Source: Candidatus Fischerbacteria bacterium RBG_13_37_8 (GTDB lineage Bacteria > Acidobacteriota > HRBIN11 > MFGW01). Taken from it: DNA of 5,979 nucleotides. The notes under the pieces were generated by a model. The model saw nothing but the letters and a program-made list of their open reading frames with translations. It was not told the origin of the DNA and ran no database searches. Made by a program: the position numbers and the translations under genes. Shown here piece after piece: positions 1 through 5,979 of this stretch (position 1 is the stretch's first letter; every line of letters starts with the position of its first letter). Location of the stretch: NCBI GenBank assembly GCA_001780385.1, contig MFGW01000148.1, forward strand, positions 6,208-12,186. Reading direction: 5' to 3'.

Positions 1-2236
1 AGTTAACTTTTTTGTTTTCATCCCAATTAGGATCGGCGCTGGTAATAAAATATATATGTCCAAATCCATCAGGCGCATTGCTTGCTAATCTTATTCTAAT
101 GCTATTATAATTGGAGGCACTTACTCCACAAAGCGAAATTGTTATATAAGGATCAGAAGTTTGCGGATCTATATAGAAGAAGCCACCTCCAACTGAATAG
201 TTTTCAACATTGACCGCAACCCAACCTTCTGAATTTCCATCAGTGCTAAAATACCATTCTGTCGAAGATGAACAGGATGATTGATTCTTCTGAAGATAAC
301 AGCCCGCTGCCCATCCAGTTATTCCCAAACAGCTTCCGTTATTCCAGGTGATTTGCCACCAGATATAACCATCTGCTTCCTGGGGACCAGAAACAGCTAT
401 GCCAGAATCTCCAGTTGATACTTGACACAATTCATTACAACTAAGACTGGGACAAGACCTTACTTGAACGCCCGAATTATTTGCTTGAACACTATCATTT
501 ACCTGAAATAATCCCGTAATCTTTTTATAGCGTAAAGGTTCATAAAGAGTAAGATCACTAGCTTGATAAGAGCGCCAATTAACTTTCCAATCATTTGCAG
601 ATGCTTCATAAACAGTAAACAAGCCATTAGATTCCCTTTGCTTAAATAACATAACGTGCTCTCCAGGAATATCCAAAATATCCCCGGCTGCTAAATAATC
701 TTTTGTAACAAGGCTACATGAATAGTCAGTTTTTAAAGTTTGAGTGCTTGCCTTAGTGCTCAGATCCCATGTTCGTGATACAAAACCAGAACAGTCAACG
801 CCCACAGCACAAGAGCTTCCAAAGGTGATGCCACTACAGTCTGGATCCAAAGAAGTACATTTATCACCAGCATATTTTTCAGCTGCTAGTCCTTCATCAT
901 AACAATAACCTATATCATTTGTACAAGAAGTTACATTAGTAAGTCCGGAAAATCCTCCCCATTTGTATGGTATTCCGGTGTACGAACCTGGGGTACTAAT
1001 AGGTGTTTTTACAATCTTAATCTTATTACCACAATAAGTACCTCCAGAAGGAGTAATATTTGGGCTGTTTGCATAAAATGTATGAGTTCGATAAGCTTCG
1101 GCGCGACTCATTATTTCTTCTTGGCTAATCGAAGCTAAATAAGAAATATGTTCCTCCTCAATCCCTAATTGTTCGGTGCTAGCGTCACCTGGAACGATAT
1201 CTTCTTGAATAACAATCGAATGAAAAAAAAGTTGATCAATAGATTTATTTAAAAGCGCAGGATTTGAAACACCCAATGTCCAGATTATTACTTTAACGTG
1301 CTTTTTTAATGGTAAAATTTGATAGACTTTCCCATTGCTTGTTACTCTTAAATCCTTAAATATATATACATAGTTGCTGTAAGGTATCAAAGTTTCTGCG
1401 ACAATTATCCCTTTTAAGTCATATTTTCTGAGATATCGCTTTACCTCAAAAGAGGATGTGGTTTCCTCTACAACAAGATAGATATTATCCCTGTCCGCAC
1501 TAATTAAGCTGATAGTTTCAATATTCCCTTCCTTCTTTAGAATAGTTATTTCCTTTTTTATATTTCCTTCAATATCTGATATTTTAACAATGCCTTGTAA
1601 AGGCCCTTGTCTCTTTAAAAAGAAATAATCATTTTCCCTGCTTAATCCTAATATTTTTCTTTTCATTTGTGCTTCAAGCTTAACTTCAATCCCTTTTTCT
1701 ATCAAAGGGTAGGATGTCTGATCTGCTGTTTCGAAGAACAAACCATGCTTGCCATCAAAATGAATACCAACTATAGGCGATTTTGTATCAGCAATTGCAT
1801 AATCAGCAATAATGGAACCATTAGATCCATATTCAACTACTTTCATTTCTGCATTATAGAAAACGTATGCGTTTCCCCTATCTCCCAAGCATATGTCATA
1901 TGCACTCTCTGAGATGGCTATAGAGGAGAGAAAGTTACCACTTAAACTGTAAATCAATATTTTTTGGTTTGTTGAATCAAGAATATAGATCTTATCATTT
2001 TCTTCGTCTACTGCAAAGCTTTGTGGACCATAATTTCCACCCGGAATCTTTTGAACACCTACTTGACCATGAGCGTTACCCCATTCTATTTGAAATATTT
2101 CTATGGGAATGAACTGTTCAGAAAAAGCTTGAGCATTTAAATAACTTAAATAGAGCAGGCAGAACATTAATAGCATTATTTCCACCATTGCTACTCTAAT
2201 AAAGGATATTACAAATTCTATTGCTTTTATTTTCAT
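1..2236 (-). CDS. Secreted multidomain NlpC/P60-family cell-wall peptidase (5' end complete, 3' end truncated by window edge): signal peptide + beta-propeller-like domain + NlpC/P60 + SH3b-like + further C-terminal domain
   Basis: Not in the supplied ORF track. From ATG at complement(2234..2236) I checked every plus-strand triplet in this phase down to position 2 and found no tta/cta/tca, giving 745 sense codons. SD AAAGGTGG (complement of 2242..2249) lies 5 nt upstream of the ATG. An in-frame TGA at complement(2282..2284) closes the frame upstream. The N-terminus MKIKAIEFVISFIRVAMVEIMLLMFCLLYLSYLNAQA/FSEQ resembles a signal peptide with an AxA site. Residues ~40-380 show blade-like strands, e.g. 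the NHL-like SFAVDEENDKIYILDSTNQKILIYSLSGNFL. NlpC/P60 hallmarks are GIPYKWGG (W426), VGVDCSGFVSRTW (Cys482) and GDILDIPGEHVMLF (His527). An SH3b-like segment runs VQVRSCPS...GWAAGCYL. The last ~90 residues (TEWYFSTDGNSEGWVAV...) begin another beta-rich domain. Confidence 0.85.
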   Translation of the reverse strand, partial: MKIKAIEFVISFIRVAMVEIMLLMFCLLYLSYLNAQAFSEQFIPIEIFQIEWGNAHGQVGVQKIPGGNYGPQSFAVDEENDKIYILDSTNQKILIYSLSGNFLSSIAISESAYDICLGDRGNAYVFYNAEMKVVEYGSNGSIIADYAIADTKSPIVGIHFDGKHGLFFETADQTSYPLIEKGIEVKLEAQMKRKILGLSRENDYFFLKRQGPLQGIVKISDIEGNIKKEITILKKEGNIETISLISADRDNIYLVVEETTSSFEVKRYLRKYDLKGIIVAETLIPYSNYVYIFKDLRVTSNGKVYQILPLKKHVKVIIWTLGVSNPALLNKSIDQLFFHSIVIQEDIVPGDASTEQLGIEEEHISYLASISQEEIMSRAEAYRTHTFYANSPNITPSGGTYCGNKIKIVKTPISTPGSYTGIPYKWGGFSGLTNVTSCTNDIGYCYDEGLAAEKYAGDKCTSLDPDCSGITFGSSCAVGVDCSGFVSRTWDLSTKASTQTLKTDYSCSLVTKDYLAAGDILDIPGEHVMLFKQRESNGLFTVYEASANDWKVNWRSYQASDLTLYEPLRYKKITGLFQVNDSVQANNSGVQVRSCPSLSCNELCQVSTGDSGIAVSGPQEADGYIWWQITWNNGSCLGITGWAAGCYLQKNQSSCSSSTEWYFSTDGNSEGWVAVNVENYSVGGGFFYIDPQTSDPYITISLCGVSASNYNSIRIRLASNAPDGFGHIYFITSADPNWDENKKVN
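287..490 (-). other. SH3b-like (bacterial SH3) domain region of the peptidase
   Basis: Hand translation gives VQANNSGVQVRSCPSLSCNELCQVSTGDSGIAVSGPQEADGYIWWQITWNNGSCLGITGWAAGCYLQK. The pattern (V/LxVRSxPS ... G ... W ... GWxxxxYL) matches my recollection of SH3b cell-wall-binding domains. Boundaries are approximate. Confidence 0.6.
530..1105 (-). other. NlpC/P60 cysteine peptidase catalytic domain region
   Basis: Canonical motif order is present. YKWGG is at about 955..978. The catalytic Cys lies in DCSGFV (codon at 791..793). The catalytic His lies in GEHVMLF (codon at 656..658). The position where a third polar residue is expected reads TVYEAS. Boundaries are approximate. Confidence 0.75.
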
Positions 2237-2270
2237 AATAACCACCTTTTTTATTTTTCGTACATATTCG

Positions 2271-2285
2271 GTGAATCCTGTTCAC
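2271..2285. promoter_or_regulatory. 15-bp palindrome GTGAA-N5-TTCAC in the leader of the peptidase gene (candidate operator or 5'-UTR hairpin)
   Basis: Sequence gtgaatcctgttcac has perfect 5+5 inverted arms. It lies between the predicted promoter (2310..2338) and the SD (2242..2249). The same motif occurs twice upstream of the next gene (4716..4730 and 4747..4761). Confidence 0.55.
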
Positions 2286-2309
2286 GTATTTTCATCACTC
2301 TACTTCTAT

Positions 2310-2338
2310 ATTTTTGCATAGAAATTATTGGTAGTCAA
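2310..2338 (-). promoter_or_regulatory. Sigma-70-type promoter for the peptidase gene: TTGACT - 17 nt - TGC-AAAAAT (extended -10)
   Basis: Complement of 2333..2338 is TTGACT. The spacer is 17 nt. Complement of 2310..2318 is TGCAAAAAT. The same geometry and near-identical sequence occur at 4786..4814 upstream of the second gene. No transcript data. Confidence 0.5.
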
Positions 2339-2363
2339 GCAATAATTTTGTACTGTGGAATTT

Positions 2364-2379
2364 TGCCATAAGGCAAAGC
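2364..2379. other. Short inverted repeat TTTGCC-ATAA-GGCAAA
   Basis: tttgccataaggcaaa forms a 6-bp stem with a 4-nt loop, just upstream of the gene-1 promoter and downstream of gene 2. No U-tract follows on either strand, so it is not a canonical intrinsic terminator. The left arm is part of an 11-mer (ttttgccataa) that recurs at 4921..4931. Confidence 0.3.
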
Positions 2380-2624
2380 ATGAATTACGTTAGGTTATTT
2401 GAGCCACAACATTTTTTGAAACATAAAATTAATGATCTACTTGATCAATATTGCTGCTTTGGTTGATAATGTTGTAAATCATTAGCATATCAGTATTTTA
2501 GACTAGGATTTTTATTTTTCCAAACAAAAAATTGCATAGATGTCATATTGTTGATGTTTAGGGGGAAAATATGCAAAATTGGTAAATGAAAATCCTGAAT
2601 AAGTTATCATGCTTTTTACGAGCG

Positions 2625-2650
2625 AAGTATCGGAAAATGTGAAGATACTT
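2625..2650 (-). other. Inverted repeat AAGTATC-N12-GATACTT immediately 3' of the gene-2 stop codon
   Basis: aagtatc (2625..2631) pairs with gatactt (2644..2650). It starts 6 nt after the TAG stop (2656..2658) on the minus strand. No T-run follows, so terminator function is doubtful. Confidence 0.25.
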
Positions 2651-2655
2651 ATTTG

Positions 2656-4671
2656 CTACGGGCATATTTTGGTGTTGGCAATTGATGGCGCTGTGATTGT
2701 AAAAGCTGGTGCTGATCCGCTTAAAGCTGGTGCTGAACCTGACAAAGCTGGTGCAGTGGCGCTGATAGACGGTGCTGTTATTGTTAATGCTGGAGTGGTA
2801 AAATAGCTGCATGCCGGGATATTTCCAGTTGAATCTACTTTCAATGCTAGAAGCGGAGATGAAAATGAAGCGGTTTGTCCGGTTGCTACCCAATCACCGC
2901 TGGAAGTTTCTTTTGTTGTAAGGATATAATCGGCTGCGGCTCCACCAAAGCTGTTTATTCTTTGTGCAACTCCGGAAGAAGAAAGCTTTATCATTAATCC
3001 TTCAGCGGGGCCTGAGCCAAACGAAGCTGCATAACCGCCGATAAGATACCCGCCATCAGCAGTTTGTGTTATTGAATATGCGCCATCGTCGCCAGCAGTG
3101 CCGAATGTTCTTCGCCATTGAATATTGCCTGAGGAATCCAGTTTCATAACAAGAGCATCGTTATTCCCAGCTCCGAATGATTTGGTGGTTCCTGCGATAA
3201 TATAAGCGCCGTCAGATGTGCTGAGCACTGAATATGCTTTATCTTCATTTGGTCCGCCGTAGGTTCTTCTCCAGAGTATATTCCCGGAGGCATTTAATTT
3301 CATGATTAAGGCATCGATTGTACCGGAGCCGAATGAATCGGTGTATCCTGCAACCAGATAGCCCCCGTCCGATGTTTGTACAATGGAAGTAGCTGTTTCT
3401 GAGTAGACTCCGCCGTAGGTTCTTCTCCAGAGTATATTCCCGGATGAATTAAGCTTTATTAACAGCATATCGGCGCTTCCAGCACTGTATGAACTTGTTT
3501 CTCCTGCTGCAATATAACCGCCATCAGAAGTTTGAATTATTGAATTAATAATGTCTGCATTTGTTCCGCCATATGTTCTTCGCCAGATAATATTGCCTAC
3601 TGAATTTAGTTTAAGGATAAGTGCATCGGTATTCCCTGCGCCGTAGGAATTTGTGTATCCGGCAATAACAGATCCACCATCAGCAGTTTTTACTATTGAA
3701 TTAGCTACATCGTCATTCGTGCCACCGTATGTTCGTCTTGAGACTATATTACCGATTGCATCGACTTGCAGGAATGCGACATCTTTCATTCCCGCCCCAA
3801 AAGATGAGGTATATCCGGCTATAATAGCTGCATTATTTGATAATAAATCCATAGAATTGCCTTTATCGAATCCAAGCACATTAGCGAAGCCATAGCCGCT
3901 TGTGCATCCTCCTCCGCTACAATCCAAAAATACTTGATAGCCCATAGTAGAATTGACACCATTTTCCGTGACAAGAACCGAGTAAGTGCCATTTTGATCG
4001 AGTGTAGCATATACTCCCGCAGTTGCGCAAGCACAATTAGTAGTGCCGACTTGAGTGCCATCCGGACGATATAATGCTACGCATGGACATCCAGGGCTAC
4101 TTAAAGAAGTAGCTTGAGCAGTGATAACGTAACCAATAGTTCCTCCAAAATAGAAGAGATCAGCATCTGATTCAGGATTAATTTCATCAGTGATTGTTTG
4201 ACCATATTGAATTAATGAAGCGCCGTCTGAAGGCGGCGATACACGCTGAAGTGAAATTTCGTAATTAAAACCTCCACCAAATATATGTTGTTGTGCTGTA
4301 ATTGTATAGGTTCCTGTTTGATCAAGATAAGACTCTATGTAAGCATTCCATGTACCGGAACAATGCTGTACAGTTGTTGAATCAGGCTTAAATAATTTAA
4401 TACATGGATAGGAACCTTGAGAATGCATATGCAGCCAGATTGTTTCCCCTGCTTGCCCATAAAATCTAAAAGTATCTATATCTCCATCATCTAATGAGCA
4501 TGTTACGAGATAGCCGTAGGTAATATTCATATTAGTTGGTTCTGCATCACACGGAATGCCTTCCTCTGTCGCCTCAGCCACAACTGCAGAAGCAATAAAA
4601 AGAGCAAGCACCATTAAACATACCGTTACATTACAACATTTTTTTATGTATGAGATCACCGCTAGTCTCAT
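2656..4671 (-). CDS. Secreted repeat protein: signal peptide + two PPC-like (pre-peptidase C-terminal-like) beta-sandwich domains + ~7-bladed SBBP-like beta-propeller + C-terminal AP-rich heptad tail
   Basis: This is the track ORF 2656..4677. The TTG at 4677 abuts the SD directly, with GGAGG being the complement of 4678..4682. The ATG at complement(4669..4671) sits 6 nt after it (GGAGGTTGAAAATG), so I call the start at 4671 (671 aa). A hydrophobic N-terminus VTVCLMVLALFIASAVVAEA indicates a signal peptide. Two segments follow the PPC pattern: DGDIDTFRFYGQAGETIWLHM...TGTYTITAQ...YEISLQRV and ESDADLFYFGGTIGYVITAQ...LYRPDGTQV...NGTYSVLV...YQVFLDC. Then come 52-aa repeats with consensus WRRTYGGxxxDxAxSIxQTSDGGYxxAGxTxSFGxGxxDALxxKLxxSGNIx. 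Stop is TAG at 2656..2658. Confidence 0.9.
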   Translation of the reverse strand: MRLAVISYIKKCCNVTVCLMVLALFIASAVVAEATEEGIPCDAEPTNMNITYGYLVTCSLDDGDIDTFRFYGQAGETIWLHMHSQGSYPCIKLFKPDSTTVQHCSGTWNAYIESYLDQTGTYTITAQQHIFGGGFNYEISLQRVSPPSDGASLIQYGQTITDEINPESDADLFYFGGTIGYVITAQATSLSSPGCPCVALYRPDGTQVGTTNCACATAGVYATLDQNGTYSVLVTENGVNSTMGYQVFLDCSGGGCTSGYGFANVLGFDKGNSMDLLSNNAAIIAGYTSSFGAGMKDVAFLQVDAIGNIVSRRTYGGTNDDVANSIVKTADGGSVIAGYTNSYGAGNTDALILKLNSVGNIIWRRTYGGTNADIINSIIQTSDGGYIAAGETSSYSAGSADMLLIKLNSSGNILWRRTYGGVYSETATSIVQTSDGGYLVAGYTDSFGSGTIDALIMKLNASGNILWRRTYGGPNEDKAYSVLSTSDGAYIIAGTTKSFGAGNNDALVMKLDSSGNIQWRRTFGTAGDDGAYSITQTADGGYLIGGYAASFGSGPAEGLMIKLSSSGVAQRINSFGGAAADYILTTKETSSGDWVATGQTASFSSPLLALKVDSTGNIPACSYFTTPALTITAPSISATAPALSGSAPALSGSAPAFTITAPSIANTKICP
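2681..2785 (-). repeat. Five consecutive 21-bp (heptad-coding) units at the 3' end of gene 2
   Basis: Plus-strand units are attgatggcgctgtgattgta (2681..2701), aaagctggtgctgatccgctt (2702..2722), aaagctggtgctgaacctgac (2723..2743), aaagctggtgcagtggcgctg (2744..2764) and atagacggtgctgttattgtt (2765..2785). They encode TITAPSI / SATAPAL / SGSAPAL / SGSAPAF / TITAPSI. Confidence 0.85.
2962..3741 (-). repeat. Five full 156-bp in-frame tandem repeats (propeller blades), with degenerate flanking copies reaching about 2815 and 3894
   Basis: Protein repeats occupy residues 313-364, 365-416, 417-468, 469-520 and 521-572 (track numbering), each 52 aa. A 36-nt stretch tccgccgtaggttcttctccagagtatattcccgga is identical at 3253..3288 and 3409..3444, an offset of exactly 156. 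Confidence 0.9.
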
Positions 4672-4699
4672 TTTCAACCTCCATAAAATACAAATTTTC

Positions 4700-4761
4700 T
4701 TTTCATATATTATAAGTGAACAATATTCACTTTTCGTATATATTCAGTGAACCACGTTCAC
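4700..4761. promoter_or_regulatory. Tandem 2 x 31-bp direct repeat, each unit ending in a GTGAA-N5-TTCAC palindrome (4716..4730 and 4747..4761), in the leader of gene 2
   Basis: Unit 1 is ttttcatatattataagtgaacaatattcac (4700..4730). Unit 2 is ttttcgtatatattcagtgaaccacgttcac (4731..4761). A single homologous unit, ttttcgtacatattcggtgaatcctgttcac, lies at 2255..2285 upstream of gene 1. The first palindrome extends to 7+7 (aagtgaa caata ttcactt, 4714..4732). Confidence 0.6.
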
Positions 4762-4785
4762 ATTTTCTCATCAATCAACTTTTAC

Positions 4786-4814
4786 ATTTTGGCATAGAAT
4801 TAATTCATTGTCAA
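4786..4814 (-). promoter_or_regulatory. Sigma-70-type promoter for gene 2: TTGACA - 17 nt - TGC-CAAAAT (extended -10)
   Basis: Complement of 4809..4814 is TTGACA. The spacer is 17 nt. Complement of 4786..4794 is TGCCAAAAT. It is homologous in position and sequence to 2310..2338. Confidence 0.55.
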
Positions 4815-5005
4815 GGAGCTGTTCGTAACCACAGGAATTACGGGAGAACATAAGATTGAATCGTGGGAGAAGTGGGTGGAATTGCAAAATGAAAGATAAC
4901 CTATAGTGCGTATTTTGAGGTTTTGCCATAACTATTTTTCACTATTTCCAGAAAGAGGGAGCAAAAGAGCTGGACTTCCGCGCCGAGAAATACTATTATA
5001 CAGAT

Positions 5006-5884
5006 ATGATGACAAGTTATTCAAAATGTGGCAAGGTATTTAGCCAGCAAGAGATAGAAGAGATCACAACAATAGTAAAGGAGCATTATCAGGAAGGCAG
5101 GTGTGAGATATCACGAAAAGTGTGTAAGGCATTATCGTGGTATTCAGAGAATGGGAAAATGAAAGACTGGATATGTCGTGAATTTTTGTTGAAGCTCCAG
5201 AAGGATAATCTTATCATTCTTCCACCGCCGAAGGCTTGTTCATTCACGAGATTCAGGAAGAAGAAGCTTGATAAGGTAGTATTTGATGAGCCGGACAGAG
5301 TCTTTGAAGGTAATCTTGGCGACTTTAGCAGGCCGGTATTTAAAAGAGTAGGTTCTTCATCTGAGAATACCCTATGGGAGTATTTGGTATGGAAATATCA
5401 TTATTTGGGCTATAAAGGAGTAATGGGGAGATTTTTAAAATATCTTATTTATATGGAAGACATTCCGGTCGGATGCATAGGATTTACCGGAGCAGCCTTA
5501 CGTGTCAGTGATAGAGACAGTTGGATAGGTTGGGACGATGAGGTAAGGAGAAAAAATCTGAAGCATGTAGCCAACAATTTTCGTTTTGTACTATTTCCGT
5601 GGGTAAGGGTAAAATATTTGGCAAGTCATATTCTGAGCAAAGCAATTCCCTTATTAGCAGAGGATTGGCAGAGGCAGTATAATGTAGCGATATATTTAGT
5701 GGAGACATTTATAGAACAGGAGCGATTTCAGGGGACATGTTATAAAGCAAGCAACTGGAAGCATGTAGGACAAAGTAGAGGATATGCGAAGACGAAGAAG
5801 GCATACCGCTGTCATGGGATAATTAAAGATGTCTATGTGTATCCAACCATGAGTAATTCATTAGAGTTATTACAATGTCTGTAA
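5006..5884 (+). CDS. DUF4338 domain protein (DruA-like family), 292 aa
   Basis: Track ORF. The C-terminal two-thirds carries the motif series I recognise from DUF4338 (PF14236) proteins: KYHYLGY, FLKYLIY, PVGCIGF, RDSWIGW, RRKNLKHVANNFRFVLFPWVRVKYLASHIL, AEDWQRQY and LVETFIEQERFQGTCYKASNWKHVGQSRG. The N-terminal ~70 aa (FSQQEIEEITTIVKEH...ISRKVCKALSW...ICREFLLKLQKDNLIILPPP) resembles the small helical domain typical of the family. An in-frame TGA at 4916..4918 with no ATG/GTG/TTG before 5006 fixes the start at 5006 or 5009. No good SD is present. Confidence 0.85.
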   Translation: MMTSYSKCGKVFSQQEIEEITTIVKEHYQEGRCEISRKVCKALSWYSENGKMKDWICREFLLKLQKDNLIILPPPKACSFTRFRKKKLDKVVFDEPDRVFEGNLGDFSRPVFKRVGSSSENTLWEYLVWKYHYLGYKGVMGRFLKYLIYMEDIPVGCIGFTGAALRVSDRDSWIGWDDEVRRKNLKHVANNFRFVLFPWVRVKYLASHILSKAIPLLAEDWQRQYNVAIYLVETFIEQERFQGTCYKASNWKHVGQSRGYAKTKKAYRCHGIIKDVYVYPTMSNSLELLQCL

Positions 5885-5979
5885 TAGAGTTAGCATTAGT
5901 AAAGAGAGAAGATACCGTTGGGGATTGTCCCCAAGAGGAATCCTGTCAAAGAGTAGCGATGCTTCTGAAGCAGAAGGAT
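5875..5979 (+). CDS. Possible 5' end of a downstream gene overlapping the DUF4338 stop (hypothetical protein, partial)
   Basis: The ATG at 5875..5877 overlaps the TAA at 5882..5884 (ATGTCTGTAA). 35 sense codons run to the window end: MSVIELALVKREDTVGDCPQEESCQRVAMLLKQKD. Three caveats apply. The SD is weak. A second plus frame (phase of 5877) is also open to the window end. A stable hairpin (5918..5934) lies inside the ORF. Coding status is therefore unresolved. Confidence 0.35.
   Translation, partial: MSVIELALVKREDTVGDCPQEESCQRVAMLLKQKD
5918..5934 (+). other. Perfect 7-bp stem / 3-nt loop hairpin TTGGGGA-TTG-TCCCCAA, 34 nt after the DUF4338 stop
   Basis: ttgggga (5918..5924) pairs with tccccaa (5928..5934). 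An alternative pairing is ggatt (5922..5926) with aatcc (5939..5943). No T-run follows, so it is not a canonical intrinsic terminator. Confidence 0.4.

What the first reader, a model, noticed from the sequence alone, without database searches (positions are those of the whole stretch)
2255..2339. An 85-bp promoter-plus-leader module is shared by two adjacent, otherwise unrelated secreted-protein genes
2255..2339 (upstream of the peptidase gene) and 4731..4815 (upstream of the PPC/propeller gene) align without gaps over 85 nt, with 67 identical positions by my hand count (~79%). The coding regions they precede show no obvious similarity. The module contains TTGAC(T/A), a 17-nt spacer, TGC-(A/C)AAAAT, then ~20 nt downstream a GTGAA-N5-TTCAC palindrome, then TTTTCG. 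Conservation of this kind in AT-rich intergenic DNA argues for selection or recent duplication of a regulatory cassette. It also implies each gene has its own promoter but a common regulator, making them a dedicated exoprotein mini-regulon. No regulator is identifiable in the window. The divergently encoded DUF4338 protein, with its helical N-terminal domain, is one purely speculative candidate.
Basis: seen in the sequence. Interest (0 to 1): 0.7.

Follow-up and report, generated by a model that had tools for sequence, protein, structure and literature searches.

The report
Shared promoter-operator cassette before two genes
Two neighbouring, unrelated secreted-protein genes of an uncultured Fischerbacteria bacterium are each preceded by the same ~90-base promoter-plus-leader segment with a repressor-type palindrome; a third copy sits in an unrelated context on another metagenome contig, so it looks like a reused, regulated promoter cassette, which is useful to know but not a new kind of system.

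Summary
Positions 2255-2339 and 4731-4815 align without gaps at 67/85 identities, z = 23 against dinucleotide shuffles. The two downstream proteins are unrelated (BLASTP E = 1.7).

On the gene strand (-), each copy reads TTGAC(T/A), a 17-nt spacer ending in TGC, then (A/C)AAAAT. This is a sigma-70 extended -10 promoter look-alike. Twenty-four nt further on lies the dyad GTGAA-N5-TTCAC, at about +26 of the inferred transcript.

- A third dyad lies at 4716-4730.
- The dyad belongs to a 31-nt unit that is tandemly duplicated before gene 2 (TRF, 4699-4767).
- A true homologue of the module exists on a different metagenome contig, L003. It is 83% identical over 95 nt (E = 2e-22), in an unrelated context, and absent from the orthologous position in relatives.

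In all four dyads the half-sites are invariant while the centre varies. There is no Rfam hit, no significant RNA fold and no covariation.

Best reading: a reused ("mobile-promoter"-type) promoter carrying an operator for an unidentified dimeric repressor. The regulator, the transcription start and the size of the regulon are untested, because the source genome could not be retrieved. DUF4338 as the regulator is not supported.

The parts
2255..2339 (-). Module copy 1: promoter plus leader upstream of gene 1 (weak similarity continues to ~2225)
   Evidence: 67/85 identical to 4731-4815, z = 23; D3; 75% to L003 over 93 nt; gapped extension
2333..2338 (-). -35-like hexamer TTGACT of copy 1
   Evidence: Promoter scan; CTTGAC is invariant in all three module copies
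2310..2318 (-). Extended -10-like TGC-AAAAAT of copy 1, 17-nt spacer
   Evidence: TG before the second hexamer: yes; ATGC and AAAAT are invariant in three copies
2271..2285 (.). Dyad 1, GTGAA-CAGGA-TTCAC (read on the - strand), centred about +26 of the inferred transcript
2255..2285 (-). Single 31-nt unit (dyad + N-GAATAT-N-TACGAAAA) before gene 1
   Evidence: 26/31 identical to unit A of copy 2
2..2236 (-). Gene 1 (runs off the window): signal-peptide protein with an NHL/DUF5128 propeller, an NlpC/P60-like region and SH3_3. ATG at 2234-2236, Shine-Dalgarno AAGGTGG at 2242-2248
   Evidence: homologues named NlpC family hydrolase / PF00877
4731..4815 (-). Module copy 2 upstream of gene 2 (homology with L003 runs 4736-4829)
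4809..4814 (-). -35-like hexamer TTGACA of copy 2
4786..4794 (-). Extended -10-like TGC-CAAAAT of copy 2, 17-nt spacer
4747..4761 (.). Dyad 2, GTGAAC-GTG-GTTCAC, centred about +26
4716..4730 (.).
4699..4767 (-). Tandem repeat of the 31-nt dyad-containing unit (unit A 4731-4761, unit B 4700-4730)
   Evidence: TRF: period 31, 2.2 copies, 78% matches; units A/B 24/31 identical, 14/21 outside the half-sites against a background of 5.9 +/- 2.1
2656..4671 (-). Gene 2: signal-peptide protein with N-terminal beta-sandwich-like domains and a DUF5122/delta-60 propeller. Shine-Dalgarno GGAGG at 4678-4682
   Evidence: 100% identical to P0001, Candidatus Fischerbacteria bacterium RBG_13_37_8

Best explanation
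The module is a reused promoter-operator cassette about 90-100 nt long, spanning roughly -50 to +50.

Its 5' third is a housekeeping-type (sigma-70, extended -10) promoter that drives each secreted-protein gene separately. Its 3' half is transcribed leader DNA. That leader contains a 31-nt unit whose core is the 15-bp dyad GTGAA-N5-TTCAC, centred near +26.

An as yet unidentified dimeric helix-turn-helix repressor is inferred to bind the dyad and block promoter escape or early elongation. Before gene 2 the unit is duplicated in tandem. That gives two sites three helical turns apart on the same DNA face, which would allow cooperative and tighter repression.

The cassette has been copied in front of unrelated genes at least three times: gene 1, gene 2 and contig L003. 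Genes that acquire it are thereby placed under one control.

Shown: the homology, the motif layout, the invariant half-sites, the tandem unit, and the third copy in another context.
Inferred: promoter activity, the transcription start, protein binding and the direction of regulation.
For: 1. Homology far above chance: 67/85, z = 23.
2. A third homologue on L003: 83% over 95 nt to copy 2 (E = 2e-22) and 75% to copy 1. Nothing else is shared between L003 and the window. At positions not fixed by the search pattern, identity is still about 78%.
3. Promoter layout is kept in all three copies: CTTGAC, a 17-nt spacer, TGC and AAAAT are invariant. The cassette is co-oriented with a downstream gene start in 2/2 window cases, at plausible leader lengths.
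4. The half-sites GTGAA/TTCAC are invariant in 4/4 dyads while 4 of the 5 central columns vary. Across the 81-nt core 24 sites vary, none of them in the 10 half-site positions (hypergeometric p about 0.02, my arithmetic). Unit B also keeps 10/10 half-site bases but only 14/21 elsewhere.
5. The dyad is rare. There are 3 in 6 kb against 0.18 expected. None occurs in the loci fetched through proteins, L006-L024, about 256 kb including redundant copies of one locus.
6. The 31-nt tandem spacing is about 3 helical turns.
7. There is no support for an RNA element: no Rfam match at E <= 1, fold z-scores of -0.55 to -0.70 for the module on the gene strand, and only a 5-bp hairpin of -3.3 kcal/mol with no covariation.
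8. Homologous promoters in front of non-homologous genes are a documented class, the putative mobile promoters (PMC3575422).
Against: - There are no transcription data.
- The -10 hexamers (AAAAAT, CAAAAT) lack the usual first T and match only 4/6.
- Similar promoter-like hits are as common in shuffles of the window (24 found, 21 expected), so the promoter call rests on conservation and position.
- Only three copies are known, so the invariance statistics are weak and post hoc.
- The whole 81-nt core is about 70% invariant, not just the promoter and dyad. Blocks such as TGATGA and GAATAT-N-TAC are unexplained by this model.
- An operator at +26 is less common than one overlapping -35 to +1.
- No regulator gene is in the window.
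- In L003 the cassette is followed by what looks like a gene fragment, not a clean gene start.
- No published operator with this sequence was found.
Confidence: 0.5

Rival explanations
1. A reused (mobile) constitutive promoter with no dedicated regulator. The 90-nt segment was copied in front of different genes because it is a good promoter and leader. The dyad is a passenger, for example a small transcript-5' hairpin that stabilises the mRNA.
For: Three copies in three unrelated contexts. It fits the operational definition of putative mobile promoters: 80% over 50-70 nt for c1/c2 and non-paralogous genes. Conservation is spread over the whole segment rather than confined to the dyad.
Against: The half-sites are invariant in 4/4 dyads while the centre varies. 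The potential sixth base pair is not kept (C.A, C-G, U.C, U.G), leaving only a 5-bp, -3.3 kcal/mol hairpin. Tandem duplication of just the dyad unit at a 31-bp phase is easier to explain by protein binding.
Confidence: 0.2
2. A cis-acting leader RNA element. The conserved +1 to +50 region acts as RNA, for example as the target of an RNA-binding protein or sRNA, or as a short leader peptide, and controls translation or stability of the exoprotein mRNAs.
For: Conservation extends through the transcribed part (TGATGA, GAATAT-N-TAC, CGAAAA). A short ORF is present in all three copies (MKIREQDSPNMYEK / MRKCERGSLNIYEK / MKIRECASLNIY..., read). Some putative mobile promoters turned out to be riboswitches.
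Against: No Rfam hit. Folding is no better than shuffles for the module. There are no compensatory changes. Substitutions in the short ORF fall mostly on codon positions 1-2, it has no Shine-Dalgarno sequence, and in L003 it has no stop at the same place.
Confidence: 0.1
3. A neutral relic of a segmental duplication or gene conversion between the two adjacent upstream regions, with no function of its own.
For: The two copies are direct repeats only 2476 bp apart and flank gene 2. Weak gapped similarity continues about 30 nt beyond the module.
Against: The coding sequences next to it share nothing. The upstream boundary falls at, or within about 14 nt of, the -35 in all three copies. A copy on another contig is closer to copy 2 (68/81) than copy 1 is (62/81), and keeps the same 57 invariant positions. 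The family is therefore older than a local duplication and has been maintained.
Confidence: 0.08
4. A non-promoter repeat: either a miniature mobile element or a site for a site-specific recombinase. The dyad would be the core site, and the direct repeats would flank gene 2 as an excisable cassette.
For: Direct repeats bracket gene 2. In L003 the copy lies in a decayed, variable region, beside a truncated RelB-like antitoxin and a possible gene fragment. A related propeller/NHL gene pair in an Aminicenantes MAG lies next to an integrase and a transposase.
Against: No terminal inverted repeats or target-site duplications were found (inspection). There is no recombinase in the window. All copies are oriented towards a downstream gene. 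The 5' end coincides with a near-consensus -35.
Confidence: 0.07

Closest known systems
Putative mobile promoters / promoter reuse (Matus-Garcia, Nijveen & van Passel 2012; summarised in PMC3575422)
   Same: Highly similar 50-100-nt upstream sequences in front of non-paralogous genes within a genome, sometimes shared between taxa and not tied to a known mobile element. Here: 80% over 50-70 nt between the two window copies, and 83% over 95 nt to L003.
   Different: That survey was a sequence-similarity census without operator analysis. It used the -150 to -50 region and mostly found pairs about 92% identical. This module is more diverged (75-84%). It includes the -10 and about 50 nt of leader, and carries a dyad that is itself amplified in tandem.
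Classical repressor-controlled sigma-70 promoters with a downstream (roadblock-type) operator, e.g. lac O1 at +11 or CcpA/PurR/CodY roadblock sites (from general knowledge)
   Same: A promoter followed by a dyad-symmetric site with conserved half-sites and a variable centre. Duplicated sites lie in helical phase.
   Different: The operator is centred at about +26 and +57. The regulator is unknown and nothing has been tested experimentally.
Rex operator TTGTGAA-N4-TTCACAA and CRP-type TGTGA-N6-TCACA (consensus recalled from the literature, not retrieved here)
   Same: The same GTGAA / TTCAC (or GTGA / TCAC) half-site letters.
   Different: The spacing is N5 (equivalently GTGA-N7-TCAC), one base off both. 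The flanking TT/AA of Rex sites is absent. The target genes are secreted proteins, not redox or catabolic genes. Treated as a look-alike, not as a member.
TetR-type BioQ sites TGAAC-N3-GTTCA (recalled from the literature, not retrieved here)
   Same: Dyad 2 (GTGAAC-GTG-GTTCAC) contains TGAAC-N3-GTTCA exactly. The architecture is an odd-centred 13-15-bp dyad.
   Different: The other three dyads break the sixth position. There are no biotin genes and no TetR gene nearby. This is only a hint about the class of regulator.
Promoter-bearing miniature repeats (Correia elements, ERIC, REPIN)
   Same: Short dispersed intergenic repeats that can supply promoters.
   Different: No terminal inverted repeats, no extended hairpin and no target duplication. 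Only three copies are known.

Membership tests
Sigma-70 promoter, extended -10 class | -35 hexamer close to TTGACA | tested here: met
   TTGACT (5/6) and TTGACA (6/6); L003 has TTGACA; CTTGAC is invariant
Sigma-70 promoter, extended -10 class | 16-18-nt spacer with TG one base upstream of the -10 hexamer | tested here: met
   17-nt spacer, TGC before the hexamer in all three copies
Sigma-70 promoter, extended -10 class | -10 hexamer close to TATAAT | tested here: inconclusive
   AAAAAT / CAAAAT: 4/6, with A at position 2 and T at position 6 but no first T. Hits of this quality are as frequent in shuffles (24 against 21 +/- 4.6)
Sigma-70 promoter, extended -10 class | Transcription starts 5-9 nt downstream of the -10 | not testable with these tools
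   No transcript data; needs 5'-RACE or dRNA-seq
Putative mobile promoter (PMP) | >=80% identity over >=50 nt in the upstream regions | tested here: met
   80% over 50, 60 and 70 nt windows for copy 1 / copy 2; 83% over 95 nt for copy 2 / L003; definition from PMC3575422
Putative mobile promoter (PMP) | Downstream coding sequences are not paralogous | tested here: met
   BLASTP E = 1.7; tblastx of window against L003 finds only the module
Putative mobile promoter (PMP) | Lies between -150 and -50 of the start codon | tested here: inconclusive
   Copy 2 spans -144 to -60 and fits. Copy 1 spans -103 to -19 and only partly fits (coordinates)
Dimeric-repressor operator (generic) | Dyad symmetry with conserved half-sites and a variable spacer across instances | tested here: met
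   4/4 dyads keep GTGAA and TTCAC; 4 of the 5 central columns vary
Dimeric-repressor operator (generic) | A protein binds it and changes transcription | not testable with these tools
   Needs EMSA, DAP-seq or reporter assays
Rex operator | GTGAA and TTCAC half-sites separated by 4 nt (consensus recalled from the literature) | tested here: not met
   All four dyads have a 5-nt spacer
CRP/FNR-type site | TGTGA-N6-TCACA spacing (consensus recalled from the literature) | tested here: not met
   GTGA-N7-TCAC in all instances
Known structured RNA (Rfam 15) | Covariance-model match | tested here: not met
   0 matches at E <= 1 on both strands
Structured cis-regulatory RNA (generic) | Stable fold beyond shuffles, with compensatory changes | tested here: not met
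   z = -0.55 to -0.70 for the module on the gene strand; one 5-bp hairpin, 0 covarying pairs among 3 sequences. The power of this test is low
MITE / Correia-like repeat | Terminal inverted repeats and a target-site duplication | tested here: not met
   No inverted-repeat pair at the module ends; the flanks of the three copies share no duplication
Intrinsic terminator | GC-rich hairpin followed by a T-run on the transcribed strand | tested here: not met
   On the gene strand the dyad is followed by (C/T)GAATAT. A terminator-like call exists only on the antisense strand of copy 2
Druantia DruA (for the neighbouring gene proposed as regulator) | DUF4338/DruA domain | tested here: met
   PF14236, E = 1.9e-40; only E = 0.003 against the PADLOC DruA models
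Druantia DruA (for the neighbouring gene proposed as regulator) | Partner genes druB-E downstream | not testable with these tools
   The window ends 95 nt after the DUF4338 stop codon and the source contig could not be fetched

The most novel reading that the evidence does not exclude
The module is a self-contained, propagating 'plug-in' regulatory cassette: a promoter plus an operator unit that can be amplified in 31-nt steps. It spreads within and between genomes of Fischerbacteria/Aminicenantes-like bacteria and recruits newly acquired secreted-protein genes into one repressor-controlled regulon. This would be promoter mobility that carries its regulation with it, by a mechanism independent of known mobile elements.
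Probability: 0.25. Interest if true: 0.55.

Novelty: new member of a known kind. Interest (0 to 1): 0.35.

Why it matters
Nothing is known about transcription signals or regulation in Candidatus Fischerbacteria. A conserved promoter-operator segment gives a first concrete handle. It can serve as a profile to scan the genome for co-regulated, probably extracellular, proteins. It can also serve as bait to find its transcription factor. It adds a diverged, operator-carrying example to the little-studied phenomenon of promoter reuse in front of unrelated genes. It does not change any general concept.

Tried and rejected
1. Retrieving the source contig or genome failed. Exact-protein look-ups for gene 2 (both start codons), DUF4338, P0001 and P0109 were not on record.

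2. The genome-contig scan with GTGAA-N5-TTCAC-N-GAATAT-N-TACG did not even return the window. Its only hit was one 27-nt match at the end of a Planctomycetota contig (L001). About one hit is expected by chance for 20 fixed bases. Five of 7 unfixed positions also match copy 2 (p about 0.01), so its status is undecided.

3. The metagenome scan gave four hits. L002, L004 and L005 are chance matches: there is no similarity outside the fixed bases.

4. Two viral-contig scans found nothing.

5. Phylogenetic footprinting was uninformative.
   - Gene 1 homologues are only 40-47% identical.
   - Gene 2 relatives match only the propeller part.
   - The loci fetched through these homologues (L006, L013-L024) and through homologues of the L003 outer-membrane protein (L007-L012) lack both the module and the dyad.
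   - One contig could not be read.

6. Leader peptide: rejected on substitution pattern and absence of a Shine-Dalgarno sequence.

7. ECF-sigma reading (GAAC ... CGA): the spacer is 19 nt, 2-3 nt too long.

8. Sigma-54 reading of the upstream TGGCAA: no GC element at the right distance.

9. A + strand promoter or terminator function: no gene for it to serve.

10. Literature search for the dyad: no hit.

11. PDB sequence search for the DUF4338 protein: nothing significant.

Full report
**Source and gene layout**

The window comes from Candidatus Fischerbacteria bacterium RBG_13_37_8. Gene 2's product is 100% identical to a protein from that MAG, carried on a 37-kb contig (P0001; taxonomy).

Both genes that follow the repeat lie on the - strand.
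- Gene 1 starts at ATG 2236 and runs off the window. It has a signal-peptide-like N-terminus, an NHL/DUF5128 propeller and SH3_3. Its homologues are annotated as NlpC-family hydrolases.
- Gene 2 spans 2656-4671. It has a DUF5122/delta-60 propeller.
- A DUF4338 (DruA-family) gene lies divergently at 5006-5884.

**Observation**

Positions 2255-2339 and 4731-4815 are 67/85 identical without gaps. The repeat finder reports the same pair independently, 90 nt at 78%.

Against 300 dinucleotide-preserving shuffles of the two AT-rich intergenic regions, the best ungapped score is 40 versus 10.1 +/- 1.3, z = 23. The two proteins are unrelated (E = 1.7). A gapped alignment shows about 30 nt of weaker similarity continuing towards the genes.

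**Anatomy on the gene strand**

- -35-like hexamer: TTGACT (copy 1) and TTGACA (copy 2).
- A 17-nt spacer ending in TGC.
- -10-like hexamer: AAAAAT and CAAAAT.
- 24 nt further on, GTGAA-N5-TTCAC, followed by N-GAATAT-N-TACGAAAA.

If transcription starts about 7 nt after the -10, the dyad is centred near +26. The leaders would then be about 67 nt (gene 1) and 108 nt (gene 2).

It is not an isolated site. Tandem Repeats Finder reports a 31-nt period repeat at 4699-4767, 2.2 copies at 78%. The two units are 24/31 identical, and 14/21 outside the half-sites against a background of 5.9 +/- 2.1. Gene 2 therefore has two dyads 31 bp apart, about three helical turns, at about +26 and +57. Gene 1 has one.

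**Copies elsewhere**

The source genome is in neither large collection. A genome-contig scan with a pattern that both window copies satisfy did not return them. It gave only one 27-nt match at the end of a Planctomycetota contig (L001), roughly the number expected by chance.

A metagenome scan with the promoter-plus-dyad architecture returned four contigs. Three are chance matches. L003 (Ga0154622_1155, 5.1 kb) is a genuine homologue:
- 83% over 95 nt to copy 2 (E = 2e-22) and 75% over 93 nt to copy 1.
- Nothing else is shared with the window at DNA or translated level.
- In the 81-nt core, pairwise identities are c1-c2 62, c1-L003 61 and c2-L003 68, with 57 positions invariant in all three.

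So the two copies within the Fischerbacteria locus are more diverged from each other than copy 2 is from the L003 copy. The family is older than a local duplication and has been maintained.

**Context of the L003 copy**

The module is followed by a 73-codon ORF that looks like the C-terminal part of an Ig/Fn3-like domain. This is only a weak hit (E = 0.14), so it is an inference. About 360 nt downstream lies an outer-membrane beta-barrel-type gene.

Upstream, on the other strand, are a truncated RelB-like antitoxin gene and the 3' end of a Schlafen-type helicase gene.

Orthologues of the outer-membrane protein (87%, 64% and 60% identical; the last is named Aminicenantes) were fetched with their contigs. 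None carries the module. The closest one is collinear with L003 only for about 100 nt upstream of the gene. The L003 copy therefore sits in a variable, partly decayed region and not at a conserved position.

Homologues of gene 1 and gene 2 in other organisms also lack the module and the dyad (L006 and L013-L024). Two viral-contig scans were empty.

**What the conservation pattern says**

CTTGAC, the 17-nt spacing, ATGC and AAAAT are invariant. The ten half-site bases of the dyad are invariant in all four instances, while four of the five central columns vary. The potential sixth base pair is not maintained.

With 24 variable sites among 81, the chance that none falls in the ten half-site positions is about 0.02. 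This is my own arithmetic and it is post hoc. Unit B adds a similar, independent indication.

This pattern is the signature of a dimeric DNA-binding protein rather than of an RNA helix. The RNA reading finds no support:
- No Rfam match at E <= 1.
- Module folds on the gene strand no better than shuffles.
- An alignment fold of one 5-bp hairpin at -3.3 kcal/mol with no covariation. Three sequences give this test little power.

**Interpretation**

An 85-95-nt stretch of homology in front of non-homologous genes means the DNA segment itself was copied. It did not arise by three promoters converging on a binding site.

This matches the described class of putative mobile promoters (PMC3575422). The identity criterion (>=80% over >=50 nt) is met, and so is the non-paralogy criterion.

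I therefore read the module as a reused promoter cassette that carries its own operator. A sigma-70-type extended -10 promoter fires into a leader. An unidentified dimeric repressor bound at about +26 (and +57 for gene 2) blocks escape or elongation.

Caveats:
- The -10 is only 4/6 and lacks the first T.
- Consensus-level promoter hits are as common in shuffled sequence.
- Conservation also covers blocks with no assigned role (TGATGA; GAATAT-N-TAC).
- There is no expression or binding evidence of any kind.

**The 'mini-regulon' and DUF4338**

Co-regulation of the two genes is a reasonable consequence of the model. The size of the regulon and the regulator cannot be addressed without the genome.

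DUF4338 is a poor candidate for the regulator:
- It is described as a GNAT-like acetyltransferase domain (PMC10853773).
- It hits no transcription-factor family.
- It matches PADLOC DruA models only at E = 0.003.
- It has no solved relative.
- It is absent from the L003 contig.

**Comparison with known operators**

These comparisons are from memory and are leads only. Rex sites (GTGAA-N4-TTCAC) and CRP-type sites (GTGA-N6-TCAC) share the half-site letters but differ by one base in spacing, so membership is rejected. Dyad 2 contains the TetR-type BioQ motif TGAAC-N3-GTTCA, but the other dyads do not keep it. A full-text search for the dyad itself found nothing.

**Verdict**

The finding is real and a well-formed piece of regulatory DNA. 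It is best filed as a new member of a known kind: a reused promoter with an operator. Interest is moderate to low, because it is unsurprising to a specialist and its mechanism is untested here. It is useful as a handle on gene regulation in an uncultured phylum.

Noticed in passing
window 2702-2754 (- strand coding, C-terminus of gene 2): A 21-nt tandem repeat, 2.5 copies at 84%, encoding the heptad SAPALSG repeated at the extreme C-terminus (…APALSGSAPALSGSAPAF…). No recognised sorting signal follows it; the protein ends …NTKICP.
   Followed up: no
window 3100-3687: Four 156-nt (52-codon) repeats at 68-72% identity (D1). These are the blades of the DUF5122/delta-60 propeller of gene 2.
   Followed up: partly
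window 5006-5884 (+) and 5875-5979 (+): A DUF4338/DruA-family gene (Pfam E = 1.9e-40, but PADLOC DruA only 0.003). A further ORF starts at 5875, overlaps its stop codon by 10 nt and runs off the window. It could be a Druantia-like or other defence or mobile operon.
   Followed up: partly
window 2361-2369 and 4921-4929 (+ strand); L003 4506-4514 (- strand): The 9-mer TTTTGCCAT (ATGGCAAAA on the other strand) lies 25-120 nt upstream of the -35 in all three module copies, but at different distances, and in L003 in the opposite orientation relative to the module. In L003 it coincides with the start of a small ORF on the other strand. Probably chance.
   Followed up: partly
window 2362-2377: A perfect 6-bp hairpin/palindrome TTTGCC-ATAA-GGCAAA lies 23 nt upstream of the -35 of copy 1. 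No T-run follows on either strand, so it is not a canonical terminator for gene 2.
   Followed up: no
window 2340-2655: A 316-nt, 29% GC spacer between the gene 2 stop codon and module copy 1. It has no ORF and no terminator-like site on the gene strand, so read-through from gene 2 into gene 1 is possible.
   Followed up: no
window 2255-2297, 4731-4773 (- strand); L003 ~4319-4357: A short ORF starting at the conserved TGATGA block (MKIREQDSPNMYEK* / MRKCERGSLNIYEK*; in L003 it reads on for about 47 codons). There is no Shine-Dalgarno sequence and the differences are mostly non-synonymous. Judged non-coding.
   Followed up: yes
L001 3804-3830 (- strand), Planctomycetota MAG contig JAGYMJ010000598.1: GTGAACGGGGTTCACTGAATATTTACG lies at the very end of the contig, upstream of an ABC1/UbiB-type kinase gene. 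It matches 5 of 7 unfixed positions of copy 2. Either chance or a distant relative of the 31-nt unit; the contig end hides any promoter part.
   Followed up: partly
L014 10001-15700 (Aminicenantes MAG GCA_029882525.1): A DUF5122-propeller gene (49% identical to gene 2's propeller) is followed directly by an NHL/DUF5128 gene and a 660-aa gene. This is the same order as gene 2 then gene 1 in the window. It lies next to a phage-type integrase and a DDE transposase, and carries ordinary TTGACA-type promoters but no module.
   Followed up: partly
L003 4760-4830 and L007 ~140-200: Both contigs carry the short 'GTCATTG(C/T)GAG…GC…AA…' repeat that translates as VIAS…-type pseudo-ORFs. It is a dispersed intergenic repeat; in L003 it interrupts the RelB-like antitoxin gene.
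   Followed up: no
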